DNA of 64,000 bases from an uncultured Chloroflexia bacterium (lineage in GTDB: Bacteria; Chloroflexota; Chloroflexia; Thermomicrobiales; UBA6265). The position numbers and the translations under genes are program-made. The stretch is taken from positions 1,968,513 through 2,032,512 of the forward strand of contig CAVXMV010000005.1 in the NCBI GenBank assembly GCA_963763125.1. Direction: 5' to 3'. This document shows positions 2,769-58,102 of the stretch, one piece after another (the stretch's first letter is position 1; each line of letters starts with the position of its first letter). A model generated the notes under the pieces. It was not told where the DNA came from. It searched no databases and saw only the letters and a program-made list of their open reading frames with translations.

Positions 2769-3545
2769 TTACCGAGCGGTCAAGCCGCCGTCGATCGTGT
2801 ACTGCGAGCCGGTTACGAAACCCGCCTCATCGGAGGCCAGATACAACGCCAGCGGCGCGATCTCGTCAGGGCGGCCCATCCGCCCAATCGGTTGCCGGGC
2901 GTGGAGCTGGGCCCGCGTTTCCTCGATTTCTCCCGCATGATACTTCTGCAAATAGCCTTCCACGAATGGACTCTCGACCGTTCCCGGGCAAATGCAGTTG
3001 CAGCGAATCCCCTGGTCCACGAAATCCATCGCCGTCGATTGGGTCATGGAAATCACGGCTGCCTTGGTCGTGCAATAGGCAAAGCGGCGCGACACCGCAA
3101 CCTGACCGGCGATCGAGGCGATGTTGACGATTGTGCCGCCCTTCGGATCCTGGGCCAGCATCTGGTTCACGGCGGCCAGCGAGCAGTTGTAAACACCGTA
3201 GATGTTGACCGCAACCAGCCGCGCGAAATCGTCCGGTCCGGTTTCGACCAGGTTCCCGACCATGCCAATACCGGCATTGTTGACCAGGATGTCGAGTTGG
3301 CCAGTCGTGGACACGATCTCGGCCACCGCCGCGTTGGCGGCATCGAGGTCCGTTACATCGAGTGCGAGCGGGAAGGCGTTGCCCCCGGCGGCGGTGATCT
3401 CATCGGTGACCCCGGCGCGGCCAGGCTCATTGATGTCAGCGACCGCGATGGTGGCGCCCTGTTTCGCGAAGAGGAGCGCAATCTCGCGCCCAATCCCGGA
3501 CCCAGCTCCCGTTATCAACGCCGTCTTTCCGTCCAGATTGAACAC
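2769..3545 (-). CDS. Short-chain dehydrogenase (BDH2 / 2-keto-3-deoxy-L-fuconate dehydrogenase-like)
   Basis: TGAGSGIG, NNAG, YCTTK, NCICPGTVESP; GAAGGAG RBS before GTG start. Confidence 0.88.
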   Translation of the reverse strand: MFNLDGKTALITGAGSGIGREIALLFAKQGATIAVADINEPGRAGVTDEITAAGGNAFPLALDVTDLDAANAAVAEIVSTTGQLDILVNNAGIGMVGNLVETGPDDFARLVAVNIYGVYNCSLAAVNQMLAQDPKGGTIVNIASIAGQVAVSRRFAYCTTKAAVISMTQSTAMDFVDQGIRCNCICPGTVESPFVEGYLQKYHAGEIEETRAQLHARQPIGRMGRPDEIAPLALYLASDEAGFVTGSQYTIDGGLTAR

Positions 3546-3702
3546 CAGGTCTCCTTCAACCACAACGTGCAGGGGAGGCTCGATGATTCCCCTGTCGCGC
3601 GCGCGTGAACTGTCATGCCGGGGAATGAGACGGCGCCGCAGTATCTTCCTGCTGGATCTTCGCCAGTGGCGAACATCGGTTGCCTCGTTCCATGCCCACA
3701 AA

Positions 3703-3712
3703 TTGTATACAA
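3703..3712. promoter_or_regulatory. Putative GntR-family operator TTGTATACAA
   Basis: Perfect palindrome upstream of the SDR-uxaA operon; same core CTGTATACAA at 11956-11965 upstream of the GntR gene. Confidence 0.55.
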
Positions 3713-3925
3713 CTCAACGGAATTCGTGAATAGCACTCGTGATTCCTGAATGAACAAATCCCCATCGACCCATGACGACGCCTGGTTGTGGCCGCTCTGG
3801 TGGCGGCCAATCACCGTGATTGGCGTCATGGACGATGGGGAAGGTGCAGGGCGCGTCTCAACCGGGGCGGGACCGGTAATCCCGCGAATGTCCCACACGA
3901 CGAGCCCTGGAGGGGAATCGACGAG

Positions 3926-4273
3926 CTAGACGCTCACGGATCGCATGACCGGGTCCGACTTCCTGGAGAGGTGAGCGGTGATTCGACCTGTGCGCTCAAG
4001 CCCGATCCGCACGACGTGTGCGGTGCTGCCGGTGCCTGCCGTTACGGTCGCGATTGGGATTTCGGTCATCTGTGAGGTGAGTGCCTGCTTCGCCAGGACA
4101 CGCGCCCTCGACTCGGACACCCGAATCTCTTCGCCCGAATTTCGTTGCCGCAAGTACACCTTGGCGATTTCCACGACAGGGACTGCGCGTTCGCGGACAT
4201 ACGCCGCAAGCTCAACTGCACGCTCGTCGCCGATCTTTTGGCCATCTGGCAGAGGCCACCATTCAATTGCCAT
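3926..4273 (-). CDS. Hypothetical protein, 115 aa, putatively LexA-regulated
   Basis: ORF with GGAGG RBS, downstream of a promoter containing a LexA-type box. Confidence 0.7.
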   Translation of the reverse strand: MAIEWWPLPDGQKIGDERAVELAAYVRERAVPVVEIAKVYLRQRNSGEEIRVSESRARVLAKQALTSQMTEIPIATVTAGTGSTAHVVRIGLERTGRITAHLSRKSDPVMRSVSV

Positions 4274-4386
4274 TGCCTGACCTCCAACGTTTCATAATTA
4301 TTGCGTTCGAGACGTATCGACAACTAGTCAACGCGATAGAAACTCTTGCGCCCCAATCCGACGATTCCGTCCCGCCATACACACAA

Positions 4387-4415
4387 AGTATAGAACATGC
4401 GTTCTAAACTGGCAA
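4387..4415 (-). promoter_or_regulatory. Sigma70 promoter TTGCCA-17-TATACT with LexA (Cheo-type) box GAACGCATGTTC in the spacer
   Basis: Read directly on the minus strand; box at 4393-4404. Confidence 0.8.
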
Positions 4416-4561
4416 CTGGCTGGTCATAACGCATGGCTTTGTGTTGCGATTTGTAGGCGAGGATTTCCGTCCCGATGCCGATGGCGTCGGTGGGCATCCT
4501 CATCCAATGGAGCGCTCAAAAGAAGACGTTCAGGATCCCGCTGATAGATGGGATACACCCC

Positions 4562-4590
4562 TTGCCAAAAGCGAACGCATGTTCTATTCT
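4562..4590 (+). promoter_or_regulatory. Sigma70 promoter TTGCCA-17-TATTCT with LexA (Cheo-type) box GAACGCATGTTC in the spacer
   Basis: Read directly; box at 4573-4584. Confidence 0.8.
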
Positions 4591-4640
4591 GGTCACCTAC
4601 AGAAGATGTACGTACATGCGTCGGGACAGGGGACCTTGCA

Positions 4641-4901
4641 ATGAACAACGAACCATTTGCGTTCACCTATCAGGATAGTAGCGGAGCTGAGGGTGCGATC
4701 GTTCTGGAGTCGATGCGCAAGCTATGGGTGGACCATGATCGGTCCGGCATCATCTTTGCCGAACCCACGGGAGATGGCTCCGAATTCCTGCATGAGGTGG
4801 TGATCGAGGGGCCAGAAGGGTGCAGATGGCATGGCCGAGATTATGGAGACGCTGCTTGGGATCCGGTCATTCGAACGTCTCGAGCAACCGTTGCACGATG
4901 A
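4641..4901 (+). CDS. Hypothetical protein (86 aa; frame may continue to ~5048 if disrupted), putatively LexA-regulated
   Basis: MNNEPFAFTY... after CAGGGGA RBS-like site; the same frame reads SSVRLVLEFRY...WVELWTHC past stops at ~4899 and ~4971. Confidence 0.55.
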   Translation: MNNEPFAFTYQDSSGAEGAIVLESMRKLWVDHDRSGIIFAEPTGDGSEFLHEVVIEGPEGCRWHGRDYGDAAWDPVIRTSRATVAR

Positions 4902-5153
4902 TCATCGGTCCGACTCGTGCTGGAATTCCGGTACCCGAATCCACACACGGTGGCCCTGGCGTTCCGAGCGTAGCGGATTGCCACAATGTTGACCGAAGAG
5001 AACTGGGTAGAGCTGTGGACCCATTGCACCCCGAAGCTGTGCCGTTGATAAGCTCCAATCCCGGGGCGGAGAAATTCGCCCCGCTGAATCTACGGGAATC
5101 CACAGGGGATCCCCGTAAAAAATCGAAGCGCGCGGGTCTTCTAGTACCATCTG

Positions 5154-6387
5154 CTACACGGCCCTCATCGCCAGGCTGGCGTTGATCCCGCCGAATCCGA
5201 ACGCATTGTTGAGCAGGTGAGCAATCCGGCATTCGCGGCCACCAGGACCGATCACGTCGAGGTCGCAGTCCGAATCCTTGTCAACCAGGTTGGCGGTGCC
5301 CGGCAGGTAACCTCGTTCCAGGGCGAGCGCGCAGATCGCGGTTTCCATCGCCCCGGTCGCGCCGAGCGCGTGACCGTGCATCCCTTTCGTGCCGCTGATC
5401 GGGATGCGTCCTGCATGCTCGCCCAATGCGAGCCGGATCGCGCGGCACTCGGTTGAATCGTTGAGCACGGTCGACGAACCGTGCGCATTCACGTAGTCAA
5501 TCGCCTCTGGCGGCAATCCGGCGCTGCAGAGCGCCGCGCTCATTGCGCCCGCGGCATGGATGCCCTCCGGATGCGGCGCCGTCATGTGGTGAGCGTCCAT
5601 CGTGGTGCCATAGCCAATCGAGCTCGGCGTAGATATGCGCTCCTCGCGCCAGGGCGTGGGCGAACGATTCGAGCACCAGCACACAGCCGCCTTCGGCAAT
5701 CACGAATCCATCGCGACCCTTATCGAACGGCCGGCTGGCAGTTCCGGGGTCCTCGTTGCGCGTGCTTAGCACACGAATCATCGCGAATGCGCCAAATGTG
5801 AGCGGCGCGAGTGGCGCTTCGGCACCTCCGGCAAGCATCACGGCCACGCGTCCATCCTCGATCAACCGGGCCGCTTCACCGATCGCGATCATCCCTGCCG
5901 CGCAGGAATTGCCGTTGCTGAGCGAAGGGCCGTGCAGCCCGAGCTCGATCGCGATATTCGAGGAGGCTGCCCCACCAAAAACCGAGAGCGCAAGCAGCGG
6001 ATTGACCTTCCCCGGTCCACTGCGGACGTAGGACTCGTGTTGCTCTTCTCCGAAGGCGACGCCACCCAGAGCCGACCCGACGTAGACGCCAGCACCCGAG
6101 CTGGCCGCATCGGCCGGGGTCAGGTCGGCATCTTCCAGCGCCATCCTGGCGCAGACGAGTGCGAACTGTGAGAACCGGTCGAGTCGCCTTGCTCGTTTGG
6201 CGGGTAAATGGTCCAGCGGATCGAAGTCGACCTCAGCAGCCACCTGGCTCGAGAAATGGGACGGGTCGAAGCGCGTGATCGTGCGAACCGCCGACGTGCC
6301 GGCGCGAACACCTTCCCAGAGCACTTCGACACCAGTCCCGATTGGCGTGATCGCGCCGATCCCGGTGATTGCTACGCGTTGCTTCAA
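5154..6387 (-). CDS. Beta-ketoacyl-ACP synthase II (FabF/KS-alpha-like); one frameshift near 5620
   Basis: Joined ORFs 5497..6387 and 5154..5699; NSCAAG Cys, SRPFDKGRDGFV, NAHGSST His, KGMHGHALGA His, NAFGFGG. Confidence 0.88.
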
Positions 6388-6866
6388 GCTCGTGGCCTTC
6401 CGTCTGGATCGAATCGTGGGTCGCGGTTTTCGACGATGGCCTTGATCGTGGCGAGCGTTTTACCGGCAATCGCGGCCACGAAATGGGGACCGATGATGTG
6501 ATCCGCGATAACGCCGCCGACTAGCGGCCACGGTGGCGCAAAGTCGTGGTCAATCCGGACCTTGACCCCAGTCGAATCGGGTTCGAAGGTCCAGGCGACG
6601 ATCATTCCCTTCGTTACCCCGCCGATATGGCGAAACCGGATCACGGGTATAGGCCCATTTCGCTCGATATCCTGCACTGCCCGCCACTTGACTGGAATCC
6701 GCCCACGCCGGGCCGCCATCTCGACCGTTTTGTGGTCACCGCCGCCTTCAAGCAGCGTGACCCAGCGGTAGTGGGGAAGGATCACCGGCCAGCGCTCGAT
6801 GTCCGCGGCGAGCGCCACGATCCTGTCCAGGGATCCTGCCATCTCGACTGTGTTGGCCGTCTGCAT
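6384..6866 (-). CDS. SRPBCC family polyketide cyclase/aromatase-like protein
   Basis: ADIERWPVILPHYRWV, W..F.HIGGVTKGM.V.W motifs; stop overlaps the KS start (ATGA). Confidence 0.8.
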   Translation of the reverse strand: MQTANTVEMAGSLDRIVALAADIERWPVILPHYRWVTLLEGGGDHKTVEMAARRGRIPVKWRAVQDIERNGPIPVIRFRHIGGVTKGMIVAWTFEPDSTGVKVRIDHDFAPPWPLVGGVIADHIIGPHFVAAIAGKTLATIKAIVENRDPRFDPDGRPRA

Positions 6867-6884
6867 GCGTTGACCAGTCCTTCA

Positions 6885-8087
6885 CTATGGGCGCAACAGT
6901 CGCGCCAGGAAAATGGGAGAGAGGGCATCAGTGGCGGGCCGGAAGTTGCCAAGCACACCACTCAACGTCAGCCCAAGCTCCTCGCGCTGGGCCAGACGGT
7001 CGGTGACGTAGTTCATCAGCGGTGGCATATTGATGAAGCCCTGGACGATCCAGCAGACTTCGCGCTTGGCGGTGAACGTGCGTCGCCGGGCGATACGGTA
7101 ACCGTCGAGAGCGGCGGCTGAGGTGTCTCCTGAGGTGAGTGCGGCATGTGCTACCGGTGCCGCGATCGCCGCCCCGCGCAACGCCTCGTATATGCCCTCA
7201 CCGGTAAAGGGATCGAGGAACGACGCTGCATCGCCGACCAGGAGGAAGCCGTCCCCTATGGTTCGGCGAGCGCGACGCGCCATCGAGCCGACTCCGCGAA
7301 TGCCACCGACCTGCTCGGCGCCATCCAGCTTGCGCGCGACGGCCGGAATCGACCGCAGTGAAGCGGAAAAGAACTCGTCGATCGATCCGGTTCGGGCTTC
7401 TACTGCGCGCACGTTGGCGACCACCGCAACATTGGTCAGCCCGTCTTCCAGCGGCGCCAATCCAACGTACGCTTGACGACCAACATGCATTTCCCCAAAC
7501 ATGCCGAGGTCGCGGACACCCCGGTAGTGCGCGACGAATCCTGTCTTCCGTGGCCAGCGCAGGGGAACATCCAGCTCCAATCCGCGCCCGATCACCGAAT
7601 TGTGGCCATCGGCGCCGATCACCAGCGGCGACCGGAGCAGTTCGCGGGACCCGTTGATCGTGGCCTCGACACCGACGACGCGGCCTCGTTGCTGGACGAC
7701 TTCCCGAACGTGGGCGCGTTCGCAAACTTCGACTCCGGCTGCCTTCGCGCGTTCGAGAAGGAGATGATCCAGGCGGTAGCGAGACAGGCCCAATGCCGCG
7801 CGGCCGGGATCCGCCTTCGCGAAATTGGCCGTGAACATGTGCCCGTTCGGAGCATGAACGATCATTGCATCCATCCGGTGGGCCCCGGCCAGAATCACCT
7901 CGTCGAGGACTCCCATTTTGCCGAGCAACTCGGCTGCCGCCGGGTTGATGTACTCGGAGCACGCCTTGTGGCGCGGGAAACTCGCCTTGTCCAGGAGCAG
8001 CACGCGGTGACCCGCTTCCGCGAGTGAGGTTGCCAGCGCACTCCCTGCCGGTCCCCCACCAACGACGATCGCTTCGGCATCAGGCAT
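6885..8087 (-). CDS. FAD-dependent oxidoreductase (geranylgeranyl reductase / halogenase-like family)
   Basis: VVGGGPAG, FPRHKACSE, IGADG, LVGDAASFLDPFTGEGI. Confidence 0.88.
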   Translation of the reverse strand: MPDAEAIVVGGGPAGSALATSLAEAGHRVLLLDKASFPRHKACSEYINPAAAELLGKMGVLDEVILAGAHRMDAMIVHAPNGHMFTANFAKADPGRAALGLSRYRLDHLLLERAKAAGVEVCERAHVREVVQQRGRVVGVEATINGSRELLRSPLVIGADGHNSVIGRGLELDVPLRWPRKTGFVAHYRGVRDLGMFGEMHVGRQAYVGLAPLEDGLTNVAVVANVRAVEARTGSIDEFFSASLRSIPAVARKLDGAEQVGGIRGVGSMARRARRTIGDGFLLVGDAASFLDPFTGEGIYEALRGAAIAAPVAHAALTSGDTSAAALDGYRIARRRTFTAKREVCWIVQGFINMPPLMNYVTDRLAQREELGLTLSGVLGNFRPATDALSPIFLARLLRP

Positions 8088-8844
8088 GGTTGGACCTGCC
8101 ATTCCTGACGGCGGCCATTCGGAACCACATATGCGTCGTGATCGTCGCGTTGTCGATCCCGGCGTGACGAAGCAACCCGTCAAGCTCCGCCGGGGTGTAG
8201 GCACGGCGGACGGAGAGTGGGGCATCGTTGCGGGTGAGCCGGTTGCGGGTCGTCAGCCGCGAGGCGATCCACGCCGCACCGAACCCGAGGCGGCTGCGAT
8301 GGAGATCGTTGAGGATGAACCCCCTGCGTGCGAGCCGGTCCATCTGATGGAGAACCTGAACGGCATCCACTGGTGAAAAATGATGGAGAGACAGTGAACA
8401 GAGCACAACATCGAAGCTCGTGTCCGGAAGCGGAACGGATCGCGCGTCGTAGCGCTCGATCGTAATATCCGGGATACCTGCCGTGTATTCCCGGGCCAGT
8501 TCCAGGATAGAAGGCGAGACATCGCTGGCGACGATGCACACAGGCTGGTTACGCCGTTTGGCCCATCGCGAAATGGCCAGTGGGATATCGCCGCAACCCG
8601 TGGCGAGATCGAGGATCGTGACCGGCTCGCTGGAACCGGATGCCGGGATCAGGGACGGTAGGTGCTTCAGGATCACCGACGTGCCGCCGAGAAGCTGGTT
8701 CACGCGGTGGATGTCGCGAAAGTTTTCGGCGAGTTCCGCAGCGTCATGGATCTCGCCATCCATCAGCTCCGCCTGGTCGCTCCGTGGCAGAGGGGAAAAG
8801 AGGTGTCTTCCTGAACCGCGAGAGGTTTGGACTGGATGCGACAC
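8080..8844 (-). CDS. SAM-dependent methyltransferase (family found next to aromatic-polyketide synthases)
   Basis: RSDQAELMD..VNQLLGG, LDLATGCGD, CSLSLHHF, DAPLSVRRAYT; start approximate. Confidence 0.85.
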   Translation of the reverse strand: MSHPVQTSRGSGRHLFSPLPRSDQAELMDGEIHDAAELAENFRDIHRVNQLLGGTSVILKHLPSLIPASGSSEPVTILDLATGCGDIPLAISRWAKRRNQPVCIVASDVSPSILELAREYTAGIPDITIERYDARSVPLPDTSFDVVLCSLSLHHFSPVDAVQVLHQMDRLARRGFILNDLHRSRLGFGAAWIASRLTTRNRLTRNDAPLSVRRAYTPAELDGLLRHAGIDNATITTHMWFRMAAVRNGRSNHA

Positions 8845-8912
8845 GCGCTGCTTGCTCCTGGCTGAGAGGGCAAGTATACGGTGCTGGCCCAAACGCAGCG
8901 CCGAACCCGTAA

Positions 8913-9130
8913 TTGTCATTCCGTCAGGAAGCACAGGCGACTAGAGGCAGCGTAGCGATATCTCTTCGCCGCAGCGAGCCGTGTTGCCCTCAAATCCGCC
9001 CCAGCTCTTCAACAACCCAGGTAGTGGCCGCCCTGCCCCGCTGGATGTGACGGCCAGTCATTGCGGGCGAAGCAGGACCATGCCAGCCTTTCACGCGGGC
9101 GGACACAAGGTCACCCCGCTGGACGCAGCC
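8913..9130. repeat. Intergenic cluster of REP-like and GTCATTCCG-type repeats
   Basis: TGTCATTCCG..., GTAGTGGCCGCCCTGCCCCGCTGGAT, GGGCGGACACAAGG. Confidence 0.6.
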
Positions 9131-9190
9131 CGACGCCATTCCCTTGAAGACGGTCCCTGATAACCTCTATCGACCCATCCGAAACGAACA

Positions 9191-10057
9191 TCAAGTGAAC
9201 AGAGCCGCCGTCCAGCCGATGCCGAGCGTCGCCGCACCAATCGCAATGCAGGGGAAACAGGCCATCTCTCCTGACCGCGCATTTCTTGCCCAAATCAATG
9301 CATTCAGGCCGACCAGACTGCCGGCGACGATTGCCGCGATCCAGACATACCCGGCGTGACTGGTCAACCAGGGAGCAAGCGCAGCGGCCAATAACGCGGC
9401 CAGGATCATCGCACTCCAGCAGGTACGACGCGCATTGTCCTCCCCGAGCATCACTGCCAGCGTCCGGACCTGGGCAGATCGATCGGCATCGACATCCGGC
9501 AACGATTGCGCGAGCTGGACGGCAATCACCGCCGCCGCCCCAATCGGGTAGATCGCGAAGAGACCGGGTTCTACCGAACTCAGGGCGATCCAGACCCAGA
9601 TCGGCAGGAGCGGCAAGGCGACCAGGTATGGTATCCATGACCAGATCGTCCGCTTGAACCACAGACTGTAGGCAATGCCGACCCCGGTGCCGAGGGCGCA
9701 AACGAGGAACACCGTGACGTTGAATTGCAAGCTGAATATCGTCATCAGGATCAGGCCGAGGATCGCCACGGCCCATGCGCCATCCCTTGATACCAGACCA
9801 GCCGGAATCGGCTTGTCCGGCTTCGACACCGCATCCAGATCGGCATCGACAAGCTCGTTGATCGCGCCGATCGCGAGTTGTCCACCAAACATCGCACCCA
9901 GCAGCCAGGTCATCGGCCCGAGTCCCGGCCAGCCACCCGCCGCGATGAGGGCAAATGCAGCCGTCGCGATCATCACCACGATGATGGGCACGGCGTGCGG
10001 CAACACAAGGTAGCCTCGCAGCACATCGCGACGGGAAGGACGTGGGGAGTGCGTCAT
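9191..10057 (-). CDS. UbiA family prenyltransferase
   Basis: NELVDADLDAVSKPDKPIPAG and LPDVDADR aspartate-rich motifs; multiple TM segments. Confidence 0.88.
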   Translation of the reverse strand: MTHSPRPSRRDVLRGYLVLPHAVPIIVVMIATAAFALIAAGGWPGLGPMTWLLGAMFGGQLAIGAINELVDADLDAVSKPDKPIPAGLVSRDGAWAVAILGLILMTIFSLQFNVTVFLVCALGTGVGIAYSLWFKRTIWSWIPYLVALPLLPIWVWIALSSVEPGLFAIYPIGAAAVIAVQLAQSLPDVDADRSAQVRTLAVMLGEDNARRTCWSAMILAALLAAALAPWLTSHAGYVWIAAIVAGSLVGLNALIWARNARSGEMACFPCIAIGAATLGIGWTAALFT

Positions 10058-10297
10058 CGACCGATCATGCAGCACCGCGAGAACAGCGTCAATTGGGGGT
10101 TCATCACTCGAACTGGCCGGTCCGGATTTGGCCAATGGTGCGGGCGGACTCGCTTCGCTGCCCACGCTGCGTTCTGGACAAGCGCCAGGTCGCCCCGCTG
10201 GATACGCAACCTTGTCCGACCCTGCAAATTGGTAGGGTTGCGGAGCTTGCTCCGCCCGTGCTCCATGCATCGCTCATGCGCTATCTGCGTTCGACTT

Positions 10298-10909
10298 TCA
10301 CCGCACGTCGCGTAGGGCTGGCAGCCACGGATGGTCGCTATACAGCAGCTCAATATTGGAGGCGAGCCATTCCCGTTTGGCGACAGGGAGATGCGGCAGG
10401 ACGTTGGCAAAGTCGTGTTCGTCCTTCGGGCGTCGGCCCGGCGCGGATTTGTACAGCAGCTGGATTTCCGGCGCCATGATCGGCAGGCCGGAGCGCGAGG
10501 TGGTGATCATGTCGGCCTTCGGTCCGCGAACACGTGCATCCCGCCGGAACACCCACTCCGTATCGGTGAATTCGGACACCATGAACTGAGCTTCGAAGAA
10601 TCCATCAGCGCGTTTGCACCAGATGTCGTGCGCACCATCGGGGAGTGGTTCGCCAGCGCTCCAAGGAGTCAGCTTCCCGTGCGCAGCCACCAGCGTCCAT
10701 TGCGGGAAAGATGCGTGAAGCAACGGGAGGTCGGAACGGGCTACCACCATGTCGACGTCCTCATGCGGCCGCGACTGTTCACCCGTGTAGAGATCGATTG
10801 CCCAGCCTCCGGCAATGCACCAGATGCCTGGATAGTGCGCGAAAAGCGTGCCTACTTCGGCAGGGTCCTCAATCGGACGCCACAGATGGTCCCAGGATTC
10901 AGGCTCCAC
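10298..10909 (-). CDS. Nucleotidyltransferase (aminoglycoside-2''-adenylyltransferase-like family)
   Basis: WCIAGGWAID, RPHEDVD, APEIQLLYKS, RPKDEHDF. Confidence 0.8.
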   Translation of the reverse strand: MEPESWDHLWRPIEDPAEVGTLFAHYPGIWCIAGGWAIDLYTGEQSRPHEDVDMVVARSDLPLLHASFPQWTLVAAHGKLTPWSAGEPLPDGAHDIWCKRADGFFEAQFMVSEFTDTEWVFRRDARVRGPKADMITTSRSGLPIMAPEIQLLYKSAPGRRPKDEHDFANVLPHLPVAKREWLASNIELLYSDHPWLPALRDVR

Positions 10910-11082
10910 AGTGCTTCACCCCTAACAGGCAATCCTGTGTCACGGCATACAAGAAGGTCGCTTCATCTGTCATGAAGTTGCCCGCAACTCCGATTTTCAT
11001 CACCAGTTCCCAGTCTACCTGACCCAGTACATAGGGCGCCCTGGCGACAGGTGGAACTACTCCCACCTCTCCGCAGGCTGGC

Positions 11083-11829
11083 TCATGAGATCGCGACCTC
11101 CAGGTCCTTGTCAAAGGCCAGGGTGGGCGCGATGTCCGCCAGAACCCTCGCCTTCATGTCCAGGATGTGATTTTCCAGCGCAACCGCCGCTTCCTCATTC
11201 TTGCCAGCGATCAGGAGATCGATGACCTGTTTGTGTTGCTCGAGCGCGATATCCATCCAGCCCGGAATGTGCGTGCCCGCACGCTGGAACACCGATATCT
11301 GTGCCCACAATCCATTGACGATATTGATCAGACGCTGATTCTGGGAGCCCTCGATCAACCATTGATGAAACCCCTGGTCGACGGCGAGGAAGGCGGCCGC
11401 CGCGTCGTGGCGCGCGTCACTGGTGTCGGCTTCCTGAATGAGTACCTCCAGTCGATCCAGTTCACTGCGGGCCCAGCGATATTCCTCAGGCTCCATTTTC
11501 GCCGCCACCGTTCTCAGGGCCAGCGCCTCCAGCACGGCCCGCAGATCGAAGATTTCGGCAATGTCGGCAGCCGAAAACGAGGCGACGAAGAAACCCCGAT
11601 TGGGGGAGTAAATCACCACACCGTCCTGAACCAGTCGATGCAGTGCTTCCCTCACGGGTGTTCGGCTGACCCCGAGTTCCTCGCTCAGGCGAAGGTCGGA
11701 GAGCTTTTCGCTCGGTTGCAGGTCGCGCGACAGTATGCGATCCCACATGATGCTGTACACATCGGAGCCGAGATTTCTCCGCACGATCTGCGACGACGGT
11801 CGACCCTTTTCGGTTGGGTCCTGGCTCAT
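11083..11829 (-). CDS. GntR family transcriptional regulator (FCD domain)
   Basis: LGVSRTPVREAL HTH; DQGFH, EQH, NHI FCD motifs. Confidence 0.9.
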   Translation of the reverse strand: MSQDPTEKGRPSSQIVRRNLGSDVYSIMWDRILSRDLQPSEKLSDLRLSEELGVSRTPVREALHRLVQDGVVIYSPNRGFFVASFSAADIAEIFDLRAVLEALALRTVAAKMEPEEYRWARSELDRLEVLIQEADTSDARHDAAAAFLAVDQGFHQWLIEGSQNQRLINIVNGLWAQISVFQRAGTHIPGWMDIALEQHKQVIDLLIAGKNEEAAVALENHILDMKARVLADIAPTLAFDKDLEVAIS

Positions 11830-12320
11830 GCCCTGGCTCCTCGCTTCGAGTTCCTCGATGCCACACAACGCGACCCTGGGCGATCGACAACGCCACCGGC
11901 AAAGGCAACCGGAATTACCCAGGCAGATCGCACGGCTATCTGAACGATTGCGTATCTGTATACAATAAACGGTCCAGCTGCGCTATGACCAAATGAAGCG
12001 TGATCGCATGAAATGCGGCTTCCCTGTGCCGTTTCGACCGGACCCCTGAGACGGTCAAGGGAGCCGGAGCTGCCCTGCTGGATGCGCCGCTCTTGCCGCG
12101 ACCGGGTGATACGATGAAGTTCCAGCGGAATGAATGCGTTTTCTCCACTTCGCTCCATTCCGGTCGAATTGACAAATCGGGCCGAATTGGACGTGACGAA
12201 AGCCGACGCGTGGACTGCCGCGATTCGCCGTGGTGTGGCATGCTCAGCGGCAGCAACCATTCATGGTCAGTTGGTGGAATGCAGCATCGCCGTCGTTGAA
12301 GCAATGAGGGGAACCGGAGC

Positions 12321-13496
12321 ATGTCAGTTCGTTTCGCGGAGAGAATGAGCCGCCTCGGCACGGAAACCGCCTTCGATGTCCTCGTGCGCGCCCGCGCGCT
12401 TGAGGCCCAGGGCAAGGATGTTATTCACCTCGAGGTGGGCGAACCCGATTTCGACACGCCGTCGAATGTGATCGGGGCCGGTGTCGAGGCGTTGCAGTCC
12501 GGTTGGACCCATTACGGTCCGACCGCTGGAGACGCCGAGCTTCGGCAGGCGATCACGACCTACATCAACGGCTCGCGGAACCTGAACTACACACCGGATC
12601 AGGTCGTGGTCACGCCGGGTGGCAAGCCGGTCATGTTTTTCCTGATCCTGGCGCTGCTCCAGGCTGGCGATGAGGCGATCTTCCCCGACCCCGGTTTCCC
12701 GATCTACAAGTCAATGATCGATTTCACCGGGGCGACGGCCGTCCCGATCCCACTCCGCGAGGAAAACGGATTTGGTCTCGACGTCGATGAACTCGAAAGC
12801 TTGATCAACGACAAGACCCGGCTCCTGATCATCAACAGCCCGGCGAACCCGACCGGTGGCGTTCTTAGCAAGGAACAACTCGAACGGATTGCGCAGTTGG
12901 CGGTCGAGCATGACCTGATCGTGATGGCCGACGAGATCTATGCCGAGTTGATCTACGATGGTGAACACACCTCGATCGCGACATTTCCCGGCATGGCGGA
13001 GCGGACCGTGATTCTCGACGGGTTCTCGAAGACCTACGCGATGACGGGTTGGCGGCTAGGCTACGGCATTTTCCCGAAGGAGCTCGTTCCGGCGATTACC
13101 CGGCTGGCGGTCAACAGCATCTCCTGCACATCGGTCGCCGTCCAGCGCGCCGGGCTCGAAGCGCTCACCGGCCCGCAGGATCGCGTGGCCGAGTTCCGCG
13201 AAGCGTTCCGTTCGCGGCGGGACTTGATCGTGACCGGACTCAACGACATCGAAGGCATTTCCTGCGTGATGCCGAAGGGCGCCTTCTACGCCTTCCCGAA
13301 CGTCACGGCAACCGGGCTCTCCAGCAAGGAGTTTGCCGACCGCCTGCTTGAGGAGTACGGCGTGGCCGGGATCGCCGGCACCTCGTTCGGTGATGCCGGT
13401 GAGGGGTATATCCGGTTGTCGTACGCAAATTCGGAGGCGAATCTGTCGCGGGCGATTGAGCGCGTCGCCGCGATGACGACGGACGTGCTCGGATAA
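12321..13496 (+). CDS. Class I/II PLP aminotransferase (aspartate aminotransferase family)
   Basis: GEPDF, NSPANPTG, DEIY, FSKTYAMTGWRLG, GYIRLSYA. Confidence 0.92.
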   Translation: MSVRFAERMSRLGTETAFDVLVRARALEAQGKDVIHLEVGEPDFDTPSNVIGAGVEALQSGWTHYGPTAGDAELRQAITTYINGSRNLNYTPDQVVVTPGGKPVMFFLILALLQAGDEAIFPDPGFPIYKSMIDFTGATAVPIPLREENGFGLDVDELESLINDKTRLLIINSPANPTGGVLSKEQLERIAQLAVEHDLIVMADEIYAELIYDGEHTSIATFPGMAERTVILDGFSKTYAMTGWRLGYGIFPKELVPAITRLAVNSISCTSVAVQRAGLEALTGPQDRVAEFREAFRSRRDLIVTGLNDIEGISCVMPKGAFYAFPNVTATGLSSKEFADRLLEEYGVAGIAGTSFGDAGEGYIRLSYANSEANLSRAIERVAAMTTDVLG

Positions 13497-18713: not shown

Positions 18714-18838
18714 TTCCCCGATTCCGCCTGGCGGCAATCGATCCTCAATAGTTCGTAACCGGGTGTCAACGCCCATCGCGTCAGGTCATGCGGAAACCTG
18801 TATTGACCTCGATCACTCAATTATATGAAGGAACGCCA

Positions 18839-23382
<4,544 letters not shown>

Positions 23383-24061: not shown

Positions 24062-24517
24062 CTGCCCCTCGCATTCTCTGTGGTTGTGGGTACTATGCTG
24101 TTGGCTGGGAACCCTTCAAGTGAATCGATGGTAGCACGAATTGTGAAAAAACAGGGAAAGGGCTCATTTGGGGAAACTACTGCTAGCTCGATTGAATCAG
24201 TGACGCCAGGAGACCGGTGGCACAATCGCCGCCGTCCCCTGGCGTCTCGTTGCCGTGGTAATCAGCTCGCCTTGTCGTAGGGGCGAACAAGCGGGCCGCC
24301 AACCGGAGAGGACATCTCACCAACCAGGCTGTGGTCGATCCTGTGTCCGCCCACTCGAAACTCTCCTCCGCGAGTTAGCTAGCGCCGTCCGCGCCGTTGG
24401 ATGTGTCCGGCCGTTCGGAGAGCGTTTCCTGACACTTGCCAAACCACCTGCTGACCGTCACCATAGATGTTATCCGGGTCCGACGTTGAGCGTGATTAGT
24501 TGGGGAGGCCTCGTGGC

Positions 24518-25694
24518 ATGGCAACTGCTGATGGCAAACAAGTGGCCAGCGAGATAGACAATCCACGCCGGCCGCGTTGGCGCCGGGTGGTTGGTCGCGT
24601 CCTGATCGTGTTGTTCAGCGTGCTCGCGGTGCTCTCGCTTGTCCTGAATTGGGCTGCCTACGAGCTGCTCAACACCGATCGCTTCGTCGAAACGATGTCA
24701 GAGCTTTCAGCCGATCCCGCCATCCAGGAAGCGATTGCAAACAACATCACGAACCAGCTTGTCGGATTGTTCAATGCCGATGCGGTAACCAACGAATCGA
24801 CTAATGAAAGCGATCCGTTCCTGCGAGGACTGGCAAGATCGGCCGCCACCGATTTCATCGATCGCACCGTTCTCCGGGTCATCCAGTCGCCGGAGTTCCA
24901 GCAGCGCTGGGACGAAGCGATCCAGATCGCCCATCCCCATATAGTTGCCCTCCTCGAAGGCGAGGAATATGAGAACGTCCAGATCGTGGACGGTCAGGTG
25001 GTGATCGACCTGGGGCCGCTGATCGTCAGGGTCGAGGATCGCCTTCGCGAGGCCGGACTCGATTTTGTGGATCGCATTTCGCCGGATGCGATCGACACCA
25101 CATTCGTGATTTTCGAGTCGTCGGCGCTGGCAAACGCCCAGCAGTTGATCGACTTCATGCTGACATGGCGAATCCTGTTTCCAGTCATTGCCCTTGTGAG
25201 CCTGATCGGATACTTCGTGTTCTCCGCCGACAGGAAGTCGGCGACGATATGGACCGGGATGAGCCTGGCGATCGCGATGACCACGTTGCTCATAGCGATA
25301 GCGATTGGACGACGATACCTCCTCGACCATTTGCCGCCGAGCCGGGATGTTGAAGCCATTTCGGTCGTGTTCGATGTTCTCATGGACGGTCTGAATCGAG
25401 GCGCGAGGATTCCTCGCGCTCGCTGGCGTGGTGGTTTCCGGTCTTGCCCTCCTTCTTTGGGAGGATATGCCGTATCGCGCGACGATCGCGTCATTCGCCA
25501 GCCGATACCGGACGGCCCTGCTGGCCGGTATCGCTGCCGCGACCTGCCTCCCGATCCTGCTGGTCGATTCGCTCTCGGTTTCGACCATGGTGCTGGTCGT
25601 GTTCTTCGGGTTGCTGGCTCTCGGCATCATCTGGTGGTTTGCGCGGAGTATTTCGGGAGAAGACGACATTGCAGCCAGTCCTGGCACTCCGTAA
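24518..25694 (+). CDS. Integral membrane protein of unknown function (frameshift near 25410)
   Basis: N-terminal TM, LLNTDRFVET.SEL..DPAIQ motif, multiple C-terminal TMs across two ORFs. Confidence 0.7.
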
Positions 25695-25760
25695 TTCCGT
25701 AGTTCGAGATTGTCAACGTGTTCGGCCCGGAGTTCTTGAGCGAAAGTGAGGAATTGCGTG

Positions 25761-26684
25761 ATGCCCACATCGATCAGGGTGATCAGGCGGGCAGTACCGG
25801 CTGAAGCACAGATGTTGGCCGACCTCCAGAACCGGTCCTCCACCCATTGGGGGTATCCACCAGGGTTCTTCGATTGGGCGCCGGGCGCCTCGGTCATTCC
25901 CGACGACTACGTGCGTGACAACCCGGTTTACGCTCTGGAGGAGGATGGCCGGGTCGTCGGCTTCTATGGATTCACCAGGGAGGGCGGCGATCTCCTGCTG
26001 GATAAGCTGTTCGTGGACATCGACCGAATAGGAACCGGCTGCGGCAAGCTGCTATGGCTGCATGCGGTAGGTACGGCGCGAGATCTGGGAAACGACGACC
26101 TGGTGATCGGGTCCGATCCGAATGCGGCGGCATTCTATGGTGCGATGGGCGCGGTATGGTATGCGGAGAAGCCGACCCCGAGTCCGGAATGGACCGTGCA
26201 GATGTTTCGCTATGCGATTCCGCCATTGGTCATCCGGCAGGCGACTCCGGAAGAAGCGCCAGTGCTGCACGCCCTGACCCAACGCTCCACCATGTACTGG
26301 GGCTATGAGCCCGAATTTCTGAACTGGGAACCCGAGGCGATAGCGGTTACCCCGGAGCTCGTCGCCAACTCCGAGACCATCATGCTCGAGGAAGGCGATC
26401 GCCTTGTCGGCTACTACACGCTGACCGGTGGCGTATCGAATCTCTCCCTGGACAAGCTGTTCGTCGATGCCGACCGAATCGGCACTGGCGCAGGCAAGCG
26501 ATTGTGGTTGCACGCGGTCCAGACAGCCCGTGAGATGGGCGCCTCGGAACTGACGTTCATGGCTGATCCGAATGCGGCGCCGTTCTATCGCGCGATGGGT
26601 GCTGAATGGTTGCGTGAGGAGGAAACCACGCGCCCCGGCTGGAAACTCCAGATGTTCCGGTACAGCTTGTCCGCCAATTCGTAG
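25761..26684 (+). CDS. Tandem GNAT acetyltransferase (two homologous domains)
   Basis: Duplicated RSS/T.HWGY...LDKLFVD.DRIGTG.GK.LWLHAV...DPNAA.FY.AMGA. Confidence 0.88.
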   Translation: MPTSIRVIRRAVPAEAQMLADLQNRSSTHWGYPPGFFDWAPGASVIPDDYVRDNPVYALEEDGRVVGFYGFTREGGDLLLDKLFVDIDRIGTGCGKLLWLHAVGTARDLGNDDLVIGSDPNAAAFYGAMGAVWYAEKPTPSPEWTVQMFRYAIPPLVIRQATPEEAPVLHALTQRSTMYWGYEPEFLNWEPEAIAVTPELVANSETIMLEEGDRLVGYYTLTGGVSNLSLDKLFVDADRIGTGAGKRLWLHAVQTAREMGASELTFMADPNAAPFYRAMGAEWLREEETTRPGWKLQMFRYSLSANS

Positions 26685-31819: not shown

Positions 31820-32174
31820 ACCGGCCCACTACCAGGGTGGAGTGCTTTGTACGGGTGGGTCATCGTGATCTTCTGAAGGTGATTTTGTACGGCTGCCGAC
31901 CTGCCCCGCTGGATGTGTCCTCCCGCTGATCCTCGCAGCGAATCATCGTCCTCGGGAACGCGGGGCGGTGCATTTGTACGGTTGCGGCAGCGAAGCGATG
32001 CGTGCTCCGCCCGTTCCGGCGCAGCCGGTTTCTTGTCATACCGCTACGCTGCCGTCGGGAGCGCAGCGACCAGAGGAATCTGGCCCCGCTGGATACGCCG
32101 CAGCAGCCATTGAGCGATGTTCGCTGCGGCGAAGAGATTCCTCTAGTCGCGCGGGGCGCTCCTTACGGAATGAC
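31820..32174. repeat. Dense REP-like / GTCAT..GAATGAC repeat cluster
   Basis: GTACGGCTGCCGACC..., GTACGGTTGCGGCAGCGAAGCGATGCGTGCTCCGCCC, TGTCATACCG...CGGAATGAC. Confidence 0.65.
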
Positions 32175-32180
32175 GAATAA

Positions 32181-32700
32181 GAGCGACCGGCAATAGGTGA
32201 CAACCAGGCACGGGACCAGCGACGATCGTGGTGCTGACCCGCGTTAGTGCCGGAGGTTCCCGTGCTTGTGTTGCCAGTATCCGTGATGGAGCCCATCTGG
32301 GCCCAGTTTGCAGCGTTGCTCCCGGACCGCCCGGTTGTCGATCCGACCCATCCCCTGGGCTGCCACCGGCCACGCATTCCTGACCGGATCGTCATCGAGC
32401 AGGTGGTGGCCGCGCTGGTCCATGGGTCCGGGTACGAACGGATCGCACCATCCGGCGGCGACTGCACGACTGGGCCGACCTGGGTCTGGCGGAGACGCTG
32501 CACGAGCTGGTCCTGGATGAACGGCTATGGCAAGCTGCGGCGATGCACGGAGAAACGCGCGACCGTGGTGCGCTTCTATCTGGCGCTGGCTGCGGCGCTG
32601 GTGGTCACCCGGTGCCTCATTCGCGAGGCGCGGACTCGCTTTCGCTGGCCAGGGCGACCCACCACGCGCCGCCTCACATGATGCCTATTGCCGGTCGCTC
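32181..32700 (+). mobile_element. Internally deleted IS5-family element, 520 bp
   Basis: Perfect 17-bp TIRs GAGCGACCGGCAATAGG / CCTATTGCCGGTCGCTC; transposase N-term (HPLGCHRPRIPDR) joined to C-term (GKLRRCTEKR) with no catalytic core. Confidence 0.85.
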
Positions 32701-32806
32701 TTGGTGATTTGCCGACTCGCGCACGCGATGGATGGTTTCTTGCCGCTAGCTCATCATGTCGCGGCTGGGACTCCAACCAGGCTGCGCGATCTCGCGCCCA
32801 TGACAA

Positions 32807-32832
32807 TGGGGAGGTCGTTTCTGACCTCCCCA
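32807..32832 (-). terminator. Hairpin downstream of the secreted-peptide gene
   Basis: TGGGGAGGTC-N6-GACCTCCCCA. Confidence 0.55.
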
Positions 32833-32912
32833 CGTCCGTTCCGTTCGTTGTGGGTCTTCCTGGGGTCCTCGTGACTATCCTCGCGTCACTGTCCATGCCG
32901 TGAGCGCGGAGA

Positions 32913-33233
32913 TTACCCCGTCACCACCATTAATCGGTTGTGCCACCAGTAACTACCGTCGTCGTAAGAGCAGGACACGTAGTAGATGCCGCCCAAGTAG
33001 AAGGAGTTCGGATCGCCGCCGCTGGTAAAGCAATCGCCAATTAGCCCGTTTATATAATTAGGTCGCGCTGACGCGGGGGACGCCATCATGCTCAGCAGCG
33101 CCGTGCCCAGCATCAGGGTCAGGGTGATCGCCACCGCGAGCCGCTTGACGAAGCCGAACCGCCGTCCCCTCGGGGCCAGCGGCGCGGCTGTCTTCGTCTC
33201 CGTCGGTCCAGTCTCCAAAGTCTTCGCTTGCAA
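32913..33233 (-). CDS. Small secreted protein: signal peptide + ~50-aa aromatic/Gly-rich mature part with two Cys
   Basis: GAAGGAG RBS + TTG start; basic n-region, hydrophobic h-region, ASA cleavage motif. Confidence 0.7.
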   Translation of the reverse strand: MQAKTLETGPTETKTAAPLAPRGRRFGFVKRLAVAITLTLMLGTALLSMMASPASARPNYINGLIGDCFTSGGDPNSFYLGGIYYVSCSYDDGSYWWHNRLMVVTG

Positions 33234-33371
33234 GGTGTTCTCCTTCAATGTTGAGGGTAGTGGTCGTGGGCGGCATCGCACAGCGCGAGGCCCTGAACTT
33301 GAGGATAGGGTAAGGATCGGGCAGCGTCATACGCAAAATTGCGGAATCGCCGAGCGTAGTTTGTCGCAGCC

Positions 33372-33467
33372 CACGCCACATCACTTACGTGGTCGGCGCA
33401 GCGCACGCCACAACACGTACGTGGTCGGCGCAGTGCACGCCACATCACGTACGTGGTCGGCGCGCGG
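33372..33467. repeat. Three tandem 32-bp repeats with a palindromic CACGTACGTG core
   Basis: Units start at 33372, 33404 and 33436; consensus CACGCCACATCACGTACGTGGTCGGCGCAG. Confidence 0.9.
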
Positions 33468-33489
33468 GCAGTTTCGCGGTGGGTAGTGT

Positions 33490-33827
33490 CTCGTAGGCCA
33501 GGCGTCGGCCCATTCCCGCACCCGCCGCCGCATGGTGCGGTCCGAACCGCTCGGTGTGGCGATGCGTGCATCGCCGGAGCCATGCACCTGGGCCGCCACG
33601 ACATGGTCGAACACCACGCGATCGGGCACGCGCCGCCGGTGACAGCCGAGCGGATGCGCCGGGTCCACGGCGGGACGCGTGGGCAAGAGGGCAGCGAACT
33701 GCGCCCAGATCGGCTCGATCAGGCATACGGGGACAACAGGCACGGAACCCCCCGGGAATCATCGCGACGTCAGACATCGCGATAATCCTCGAAGCCGTGC
33801 CTGCCTGTCACCTATTGCCGGTCGCTC
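33490..33827 (-). mobile_element. Truncated second IS5-family copy (inverted; left end + N-terminus)
   Basis: Same TIR at 33811-33827; ORF 33381..33743 EPIWAQFAALLP..HPLGCHRRRVPDR. Confidence 0.82.
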
Positions 33828-34349
33828 TAGGACGCTGCGCTCCCGGGCGGACACAAGGTCCGCAGCCGTACACGACATTCTTGCGGTATGACAACAAGTG
33901 GCGTCGCCGGGAACCACCGAGACGATTGACCGGCACAATCCAGCGAAGCCACTAGATATGGCGCATATGTCCTCCCTCGCTGCGTTCGCATCGGAAACCG
34001 CCGCTGCGCCTGGTTTCAATCGCCACTACCGGTCGACCTTTTTGCGGAAGTTCATGGAGGATCGTGCGTGGTCGGTCCGCAAAAAGCTTCCCCGGAACGG
34101 CGTGGGTCTTGACCTCTTGGTGTTCTTGCAGCCTGAAGAAAACCACCTCAGTGTTCCATTGGTTCTGTCCGCCCTGTTTCTGCCCCGCAACTCAGCCACC
34201 GGCCAGACCGCTGACCACGGTCCCAGTCACCCTTGCTACGTGAGTTCCGATCGACCATAACCACCCCGAAATCGCGTACCCTTGTGCGGTACGTCTGGCG
34301 GCCGGTTCGCCAGCGAGTAATGGCGTCATACAGGAAGGTCGATTCACCC

Positions 34350-58035: not shown

Positions 58036-58102
58036 CACCGAGGTTGGCCGGGGATATCATGCACTGAGAACGCCCGGGCTGTGCGGACAATATGTGACAT
58101 GA

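What the first reader, a model, noticed from the sequence alone, without database searches (positions are those of the whole stretch)
3926..5050. Divergent pair of unknown genes driven by mirror-image promoters with identical LexA boxes: candidate new SOS module
Seen: both strands carry TTGCCA-N5-GAACGCATGTTC-TATWCT (4415->4387 and 4562->4590). Each has the same -35, a 17-bp spacer and the same 12-bp box abutting the -10. Each points to a small ORF with an RBS that I cannot assign to any family (115 aa; 86 aa, possibly ~135 aa). Known: GAAC-N4-GTTC is the LexA site of Firmicutes, Actinobacteria and Chloroflexota. Inference: two uncharacterised damage-inducible proteins (e.g. division inhibitor, toxin or repair accessory) whose promoter arose by inverted duplication.
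Basis: partly seen in the sequence, partly recalled or inferred. Interest (0 to 1): 0.75.

Follow-up and report, generated by a model that had tools for sequence, protein, structure and literature searches.

The report
Two LexA-box promoters, two orphan genes
Two back-to-back promoters, each carrying the same probable DNA-damage (LexA) repressor site, drive two small proteins of unknown family in a Chloroflexota bacterium; one gene and its site are conserved in relatives, the other is a patchy neighbour, so this is a plausible but fairly ordinary addition to the damage response.

Summary
TTGCCA-N5-GAACGCATGTTC-TATWCT occurs twice, mirror-wise (4562-4590 +, 4415-4387 -); no shuffle of the window gave a match.

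The plus-strand gene (B) belongs to an unnamed family of about 110 aa: acidic, soluble, 47 clusters. Relatives lie in Thermomicrobiales, Sphaerobacteraceae and other Chloroflexota MAGs. All 4 related loci that hold upstream DNA keep the same layout in register: -35, N5, GAAC-N4-GTTC, -10. The arms are invariant and the spacer varies. This supports a LexA-type operator.

The window's copy of B is broken: one extra base near 4821 and one missing base near 4906-4912. The stop at 4899 follows from the shift. The true stop is TAG 4971-4973, so B is 110 aa, not 86 or 135.

The minus-strand gene (A, 115 aa) is a real, confidently folding protein (pLDDT 92.5). It matches no family and no fold. It is absent from all 5 related loci, so the pair is not a conserved module. 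Its promoter looks like a local copy of B's.

LexA binding is inferred, not shown. The function of both proteins is unknown.

The parts
3926..4273 (-). Gene A: 115-aa soluble protein of an unnamed family. It is basic in the closest relatives (pI about 9.4-10.9) and has a conserved N-terminal WWPLPDG...G..R motif.
   Evidence: ORF. 4 close homologues including the window's own. 17 representatives at E<=0.001. Alignment A4. AF2 pLDDT 92.5, pTM 0.83. pI and absence of a hydrophobic segment.
4280..4284 (-). Ribosome-binding site of A (GGAGG), 6 nt before ATG 4273.
   Evidence: Read from the sequence.
4387..4415 (-). Promoter/operator of A: -35 TTGCCA (4415-4410), N5, box GAACGCATGTTC (4404-4393), -10 TATACT (4392-4387).
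   Evidence: inverted repeat I1; 10 of 12 promoter matches.
4562..4590 (+). Promoter/operator of B: -35 TTGCCA (4562-4567), N5, box GAACGCATGTTC (4573-4584), -10 TATTCT (4585-4590).
   Evidence: The same layout is in register in L001, L003, L004 and L005.
4607..4616 (+). Perfect 10-nt palindrome TGTACGTACA, 16 nt after the -10 of B (about +11 to +20). Possible second operator; unexplained.
   Evidence: It is the only match in the window even with 1 mismatch allowed. It occurs once each in L001, L003 and L004 at the same place, and is absent from L005. The 5' leader RNA is not unusually structured, z +1.1.
4641..4973 (+). Gene B: member of a 110-aa acidic soluble family, here with two frame breaks. 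There is an extra base at about 4821 and a missing base at about 4906-4912. As written it yields 86 aa ending at TGA 4899-4901; the true stop is TAG 4971-4973.
3759..3841 (-). Long hairpin after the stop of A, followed by GAUUUGUUCAUUC. Likely terminator of a monocistronic A transcript.
   Evidence: Fold of 3745-3930 (-): -83 kcal/mol, z -3.4, 0 of 200 shuffles as stable. Terminator-like site at 3780-3763.

Best explanation
Two sigma-70-type promoters face away from each other. In each, the spacer is filled by a GAAC-N4-GTTC palindrome that abuts the -10, so a bound LexA dimer would shut out RNA polymerase. After DNA damage, RecA-stimulated self-cleavage of LexA would release both promoters.

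Gene B is a stand-alone, vertically inherited chromosomal gene of Thermomicrobiales and related Chloroflexota. It is a lineage-specific member of their SOS regulon. It is small, acidic, cytoplasmic and without enzyme motifs. I therefore think it most likely acts by binding another protein or a nucleic-acid enzyme, in the way DinI-like modulators act, rather than as a catalyst or a membrane division inhibitor.

Gene A is an unrelated, patchily distributed small protein. In this lineage it sits next to B and has picked up a 29-nt copy of B's promoter-operator, which brings it under the same control.

Shown: the sites, their conservation for B, the reality of both proteins, and the frame breaks. 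Inferred: LexA as the binder, damage induction, the promoter copy, and all statements about protein function.
For: - Site and layout.
- Conservation for B: 4 of 4 related loci with upstream DNA hold one GAAC-N4-GTTC box 46-58 nt before the start. L002 has no upstream DNA. The layout is TTGCC(A/G)-N5-box-TA(T/C)... in exact register; the arms are invariant and N4 is ATGT, ACTT, GTTT or ACAT. In L001, L003 and L004 this box is the only such match in 4.7-10.3 kb.
- N4 shows a purine at position 1 and T at position 4 in 6 of 6 sites, as in the Bacillus consensus CGAACRNRYGTTYC (consensus recalled).
- GAAC-N4-GTTC is given as the LexA motif of B. subtilis and M. tuberculosis in PMC3323433 (passage seen). 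Its use by a Chloroflexota LexA (Dehalococcoides, J Bacteriol 2002) is recalled; that paper was not seen.
- B is under purifying selection: codon-position differences are 7/5/32 for L003 v L004 and 28/25/59 for L001 v L003. There are 47 clusters of 83-126 aa.
- B has pI 4.3-4.7 in 9 of 9 members. Neither protein has a hydrophobic segment.
- A and B are unrelated: hhalign probability 0.2.
- Promoter copy: the arms are 29 nt only, with the same non-consensus -35 and the same N4 in the same orientation.
Against: - No LexA gene and no classical SOS gene (recA, uvrA, lexA) lies among the 59 window ORFs scanned. The box could therefore not be compared with this organism's known SOS operators.
- No experiment of any kind bears on binding or induction.
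- B is broken in this assembly, so in this strain it may be inactive.
- A second conserved palindrome (TGTACGTACA) shows that LexA would not be the whole story for B.
- The B model is weak (pLDDT 59.9), so nothing about its mode of action rests on structure.
- No Pfam match to DinI or any other family at E<=0.1 in 0 of 14 B members.
Confidence: 0.6

Rival explanations
1. The palindrome is the operator of some other dimeric repressor, not LexA. The two genes then answer a signal other than DNA damage.
For: No SOS gene with the same box could be examined here. An 8-base palindromic core is short. A second conserved palindrome beside it shows other factors act at this promoter. I found no published SOS regulon for Thermomicrobia or Chloroflexota in the library.
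Against: The core, the spacing and the R...T pattern of N4 fit the LexA site of Gram-positive phyla (passage; the consensus is recalled). Its place between -35 and -10 is typical of LexA-repressed promoters.
Confidence: 0.2
2. A and B work together as a two-protein system: a basic and an acidic partner that bind each other, such as an inhibitor and its target or a toxin-antitoxin-like pair, co-induced by damage.
For: Opposite charge: A has pI about 10, B about 4.4. The operators are identical. The pair probably lies on one contig in two more relatives: P0040 and P0006 both come from a contig of 111001 nt, and P0002 and P0051 both from one of 1742 nt.
Against: B occurs without A in 5 of 5 related loci, with 0.9 to 5 kb of DNA held upstream except for L002, which holds none. 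The genes are divergent, not co-transcribed. No defence or toxin-antitoxin model matched any of 7 proteins scanned.
Confidence: 0.1
3. In this strain the locus is decaying. B is a true pseudogene with two real indels, and the mirror promoters are relics without present function.
For: There are two frame breaks within 90 nt, and a stop at 4899 lies before the second break, so the second break cannot rescue translation. Two breaks in 333 nt is more than the window's average.
Against: Read in the right frames, the three pieces stay 97% identical to an intact relative over the N-terminal part (P0006). Housekeeping genes in the window are also split: glutamate synthase in at least 4 pieces, dihydroxy-acid dehydratase in 2, ketoacyl synthase in 2. 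That points to indel errors of the assembly. Both promoters and gene A are intact.
Confidence: 0.25

Closest known systems
LexA (Cheo) box promoters of Gram-positive phyla, e.g. B. subtilis recA, lexA/yneA, dinB
   Same: GAAC-N4-GTTC palindrome overlapping the core promoter. Divergent arrangement of damage-inducible genes. A small lineage-specific gene under the box.
   Different: No lexA at this locus. There are two separate operators 180 nt apart, one per promoter, rather than a shared one. The host is Chloroflexota (Thermomicrobiales), where no regulon has been described in the papers I could search.
DinI (small acidic SOS protein that modulates the RecA filament)
   Same: Small, acidic, soluble, monocistronic, under a LexA-type box. 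This is the model for how B might work.
   Different: No sequence match: Pfam gave nothing at E<=0.1 for 14 of 14 B members. The predicted secondary structure is mostly beta. No structural match was found.
SOS division inhibitors YneA, ChiZ, DivS, SidA
   Same: Small lineage-specific LexA-regulated genes, often next to a divergent partner.
   Different: Those are membrane proteins (recalled). A and B have no hydrophobic segment; the highest 19-residue Kyte-Doolittle means are 0.96 and 0.77. Neither has a LysM match.
Sso7d/Sac7d SH3-like DNA-binding fold
   Same: Residues 5-72 of the B model (five strands and a helix) gave the best-probability PDB matches to Sso7d: probability 0.77-0.80, TM to target 0.47-0.49.
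   Different: E-values are 0.16-0.19, the model is of low confidence, and B is strongly acidic whereas Sso7d is basic (recalled). I treat this as a lead only.

Membership tests
LexA-regulated (SOS) promoter, Gram-positive type box | Palindrome GAAC-N4-GTTC | tested here: met
   Perfect boxes at 4573-4584 and 4393-4404.
LexA-regulated (SOS) promoter, Gram-positive type box | Box overlaps the core promoter, so that binding blocks RNA polymerase | tested here: met
   The box fills 12 of the 17 spacer bases and abuts the -10 in both promoters. The promoters themselves are consensus predictions.
LexA-regulated (SOS) promoter, Gram-positive type box | Box conserved upstream of orthologues | tested here: met
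   Gene B: 4 of 4 loci with upstream DNA.
LexA-regulated (SOS) promoter, Gram-positive type box | The same box upstream of lexA/recA/uvrA of the same organism, which must encode LexA | not testable with these tools
   None of these genes is among the 59 window ORFs scanned.
LexA-regulated (SOS) promoter, Gram-positive type box | LexA binding and damage induction | not testable with these tools
   Needs EMSA and RNA-seq or a reporter.
DinI family (Pfam DinI) | Match to the family profile | tested here: not met
   No Pfam family at E<=0.1 for 14 of 14 B members or for the window ORF.
Membrane SOS division inhibitors (YneA/ChiZ type) | Transmembrane segment and/or LysM domain | tested here: not met
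   No hydrophobic 19-mer. No LysM hit.
Toxin-antitoxin or defence systems | Match to a known toxin, antitoxin or defence profile, with conserved gene pairing | tested here: not met
   PADLOC matched 0 of 7 proteins. Pfam and NCBIfam gave nothing above cut-off. The pairing is absent in 5 of 5 related loci.
Diol dehydratase reactivase alpha (Pfam DDR, NCBIfam PduG) | Score above the curated cut-off and support across the family | tested here: not met
   Gene A scores 19.6 bits against a cut-off of 24.6 (Pfam) and 23.6 against 400 (NCBIfam). Only 2 of 21 family members match. No reactivase appears in the PDB profile search or the fold search.

The most novel reading that the evidence does not exclude
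The 110-aa B family is a previously undescribed SOS effector peculiar to Thermomicrobiales and related Chloroflexota, with a fold and a target of its own. Examples would be a new modulator of RecA, of replication or of cell division. Its promoter combines LexA control with a second, unknown regulator that binds the conserved TGTACGTACA palindrome at +11 to +20. Gene A would be a second new-fold protein recruited into the regulon by copying the operator, which would be a visible case of regulon growth by promoter duplication.
Probability: 0.35. Interest if true: 0.55.

Novelty: new member of a known kind. Interest (0 to 1): 0.4.

Why it matters
I found no description of the SOS regulon of Chloroflexota in the papers I could search. 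A conserved orphan gene with a sharply conserved LexA-type operator is therefore a clean entry point. It offers a ready EMSA and reporter target, and a candidate lineage-specific damage-response protein. The mirror copy of the operator in front of an unrelated gene would illustrate how a regulon recruits new members. Lineage-specific small genes under LexA are common in other phyla, however, so the kind of thing is familiar.

Tried and rejected
- Family searches for A and B gave nothing above cut-off: Pfam, NCBIfam, PHROGs and PADLOC.
- The weak DDR/PduG match of A was rejected: it is below cut-off, found in 2 of 21 members, and has no structural support.
- PDB profile searches: the best for A was mitochondrial IF-2 at E 0.01, not borne out by the fold search. 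For B there was nothing below E 0.2.
- Foldseek of the A model against PDB and BFVD, and of the B model against PDB: 0 matches at E<=0.001 in each.
- ESM Atlas: A scored 0.87 to an unnamed 114-aa cluster whose few classified members are mostly phage. That is below the 0.9 lead threshold. B had no usable hit.
- tblastn of A against phages and plasmids found no match. B against plasmids gave one weak Borrelia hit (E 7e-3, 48% coverage), taken as chance. B was not searched against phages by tblastn.
- Complex prediction of A with B returned 'no answer' (score 0.04, mark 0.32). It counts neither for nor against binding.
- Rfam on 3500-5500 gave only two sub-threshold chance matches.
- The B 5' leader as an RNA element was rejected: its fold is not more stable than shuffles.
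- Sites with one mismatch: 29 in the window, 8 outside listed genes. Only the two perfect boxes lie in promoter position, apart from one weak site 104 nt before the gene at 47775.
- The Dehalococcoides LexA paper could not be found or opened, so that point rests on recall.

Full report
**1. The observation**

- On the plus strand, 4562-4590 reads TTGCCA AAAGC GAACGCATGTTC TATTCT.
- On the minus strand, 4415-4387 reads TTGCCA GTTTA GAACGCATGTTC TATACT.
- A search for the 29-nt pattern with up to 3 mismatches finds only these two places, and none in 100 shuffles.
- The repeat finder reports them as one inverted pair: arms of 29 nt, 79% complementary, 146 nt apart, with no similarity beyond the arms.
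- A consensus scan of 3700-5300 finds 3 promoter-like sites against a mean of 0.9 in shuffles. These two score 10 and 9 of 12; the third is further left on the minus strand, at 3730-3702.
- GAAC-N4-GTTC occurs 3 times in 64 kb against 0.98 expected; 7 of 100 shuffles reach 3. The third site (26547) is inside a GNAT acetyltransferase gene and is probably chance.
- With one mismatch allowed there are 29 sites, 8 of them outside listed genes. Only the two perfect boxes sit in front of a gene in promoter position, apart from a weak one before 47775.

**2. The plus-strand gene (B)**

The gene starts at ATG 4641, with AGGGGA at 4628-4633. As written it gives 86 aa and ends at TGA 4899.

Its homologues are 110 aa long and match only the first 66-71% of the window ORF. 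Their remaining residues appear in the window in the next frame (ADGMAEIMETLLGIRSFERLEQPLHDDH), and then again in the first frame (RLVLEFRYPNPHTVALAFRA).

A DNA alignment with four orthologues places one extra base at window 4821 and one missing base at about 4906-4912 (pieces checked). This has three consequences:
- The stop at 4899 is a consequence of the first shift.
- The true stop is TAG 4971-4973, where 14 of 14 aligned homologues end.
- The stretch beyond it is not coding. The gene is 110 aa, not 86 or about 135.

An intact relative exists: P0006 is 97% identical over the N-terminal part.

Other genes in the window are also split:
- glutamate synthase in at least four pieces (18788-23382);
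- dihydroxy-acid dehydratase in two (56361-58067);
- a ketoacyl synthase in two (5154-6387).

Because housekeeping genes are affected, assembly indel errors are the likelier cause. Two breaks in 333 nt is nonetheless above the window's average, so a real pseudogene in this strain cannot be excluded.

**3. The B family**

- A profile search finds 47 clusters of 83-126 aa. None has a name other than 'hypothetical protein' and none has a Pfam domain.
- In one-genome-per-species contigs, the scan found 5 loci: MAGs labelled Thermomicrobiales, Chloroflexia, Sphaerobacteraceae (two) and Chloroflexota. This scan was limited to two peptide patterns.
- Differences between orthologues fall mainly on third codon positions: 7/5/32 for L003 v L004 and 28/25/59 for L001 v L003. 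The gene is therefore under purifying selection.
- The proteins are acidic (pI 4.3-4.7 in 9 of 9) and have no hydrophobic segment.
- The AF2 model is weak: pLDDT 59.9, five strands and a helix in residues 5-72, and a poorly defined C-terminal part.
- Its best PDB neighbours (Sso7d, E 0.16-0.19) are not significant.

**4. Conservation of the operator**

L002 begins inside the gene. In the other 4 of 4 loci, one GAAC-N4-GTTC box lies 46-58 nt before the start. In L001, L003 and L004 it is the only such box in 4.7-10.3 kb. L005 has a second one, inside a long ORF.

The alignment shows the whole layout in register:
- L001: TTGCCG-AAAGC-GAACATGTGTTC-TACTCT
- L003: TTGCCA-AAGGA-GAACACTTGTTC-TATTCT
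- L004: TTGCCA-AGGTC-GAACGTTTGTTC-TATTCT
- L005: TTGCCA-TAGTA-GAACACATGTTC-TATAGT

The arms are invariant. The N5 and N4 vary, and the surrounding non-coding DNA is poorly conserved. This is the footprint expected of a dimeric repressor site placed to block the polymerase.

The core matches the LexA motif given for B. subtilis and M. tuberculosis (PMC3323433, passage seen). Its use by a Chloroflexota LexA (Dehalococcoides, J Bacteriol 2002) is from my recall; I could not find or open that paper. In the library I found no paper describing an SOS regulon in Thermomicrobia or Chloroflexota.

**5. A second conserved element**

Sixteen nt after the -10 of B lies the perfect palindrome TGTACGTACA (4607-4616). 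It is the only match in the window, even with one mismatch allowed. It is present once, at the same place, in L001, L003 and L004, but not in L005.

The leader RNA is not unusually structured, so a DNA site for another factor is more likely than an RNA element. The palindrome is absent from the promoter of A. I have no explanation for it.

**6. The minus-strand gene (A)**

- The ORF 3926-4273 gives 115 aa, with GGAGG 6 nt before the ATG.
- It has 3 close relatives (60-87% identity) and 17 representatives at E<=0.001 in the full scan. These share an N-terminal WWPLPDG..IG..R motif.
- With this alignment AF2 gives pLDDT 92.5 and pTM 0.83: an extended N-terminus, a helical hairpin and a four- to five-stranded sheet.
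- No match reached E<=0.001 in PDB or BFVD, and no family reached its cut-off.
- The closest relatives are basic (pI 9.4-10.9); more distant ones are not.
- A is unrelated to B.
- After its stop lies a long stable hairpin (3759-3841) with a U-rich tail, a likely terminator. A is therefore probably monocistronic.

**7. Are A and B a module?**

tblastn with seven members of the A family finds A only in the window, and in none of the 5 related loci. In those loci the upstream neighbours of B are:
- a UbiA prenyltransferase in L001;
- an epimerase-like gene on the same strand in L003 and L004;
- a divergent 276-aa gene in L005.

Downstream, a nucleotidyltransferase, a GntR regulator and an aminotransferase recur in L001 and L004. 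In the window they lie at 10298-13496, after an inserted ketoacyl-synthase to UbiA cluster. B is thus a stable, stand-alone chromosomal gene, and A is a patchy neighbour.

The pair probably recurs in two closer relatives. A near-identical A (P0040) and the intact B (P0006) both come from a contig of 111001 nt. P0002 (A, 87%) and P0051 (B, 71%) both come from a contig of 1742 nt.

The promoter of A shares with the window's B promoter the non-consensus -35 (TTGCCA), the spacing, and the same N4 (GCAT) in the same orientation. The four orthologous B promoters have other N4 sequences. A local copy of B's promoter-operator, or conversion between the two, is the simplest reading. With only 29 nt it cannot be proved.

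**8. Mechanism and confidence**

I put 0.6 on the following reading. Both promoters are repressed by LexA and released after DNA damage. B is a lineage-specific SOS protein acting through binding rather than catalysis. A was recruited by operator copying.

The main rival is another repressor using this palindrome (0.2). A functional A-B pair is less likely (0.1). A genuine pseudogene of B in this strain is not exclusive with the main reading (0.25).

What stayed unchecked:
- the operators of lexA and recA in this genome;
- the DNA around A's homologues (collections closed);
- the reads over the frame breaks.

**9. Verdict**

This is a real, well-formed pair of LexA-type promoters. One of them is strongly conserved in front of an orphan gene family of Chloroflexota. 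It is a good experimental lead in a phylum whose SOS regulon I could not find described, but it is of a familiar kind: new members of a known regulatory scheme.

Noticed in passing
window 18788-23382; 56361-58067; 5154-6387: Housekeeping and other genes are split into pieces in different frames: glutamate synthase in at least 4 pieces, dihydroxy-acid dehydratase in 2, beta-ketoacyl synthase in 2 overlapping ORFs. This suggests indel errors in the assembly, or many pseudogenes.
   Followed up: partly
window 4607-4616; L001 823-832; L003 and L004 4968-4977: The perfect palindrome TGTACGTACA is conserved at about +11 to +20 of the B transcript in 4 of 5 promoters, and is unique in the window. It may be a second operator; its binder is unknown.
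   Followed up: partly
window 3759-3841 (and 3847-3909): Long, very stable hairpins lie between gene A and the short-chain dehydrogenase gene. The 186-nt stretch folds at -83 kcal/mol, z -3.4. This is probably the terminator of A, but a small repeat element at the edge of an insertion is not excluded.
   Followed up: partly
window 5154-10270; L001 2-619: A cluster on the minus strand holds a ketoacyl synthase, a polyketide-cyclase-like protein, an FAD reductase, a methyltransferase and a UbiA prenyltransferase. In the window it lies downstream of B. In L001 the UbiA gene lies upstream of B, which implies a local rearrangement between relatives.
   Followed up: no
window 26547-26558: The third GAAC-N4-GTTC (GAACTGACGTTC) lies near the 3' end of a GNAT acetyltransferase gene, not in a promoter. 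It is probably chance.
   Followed up: yes
window 32036-34260 and 24500-25702: Several ORFs of 115-400 aa have coding-like GC3 but no Pfam match at E<=1e-5. I did not look at them further.
   Followed up: no
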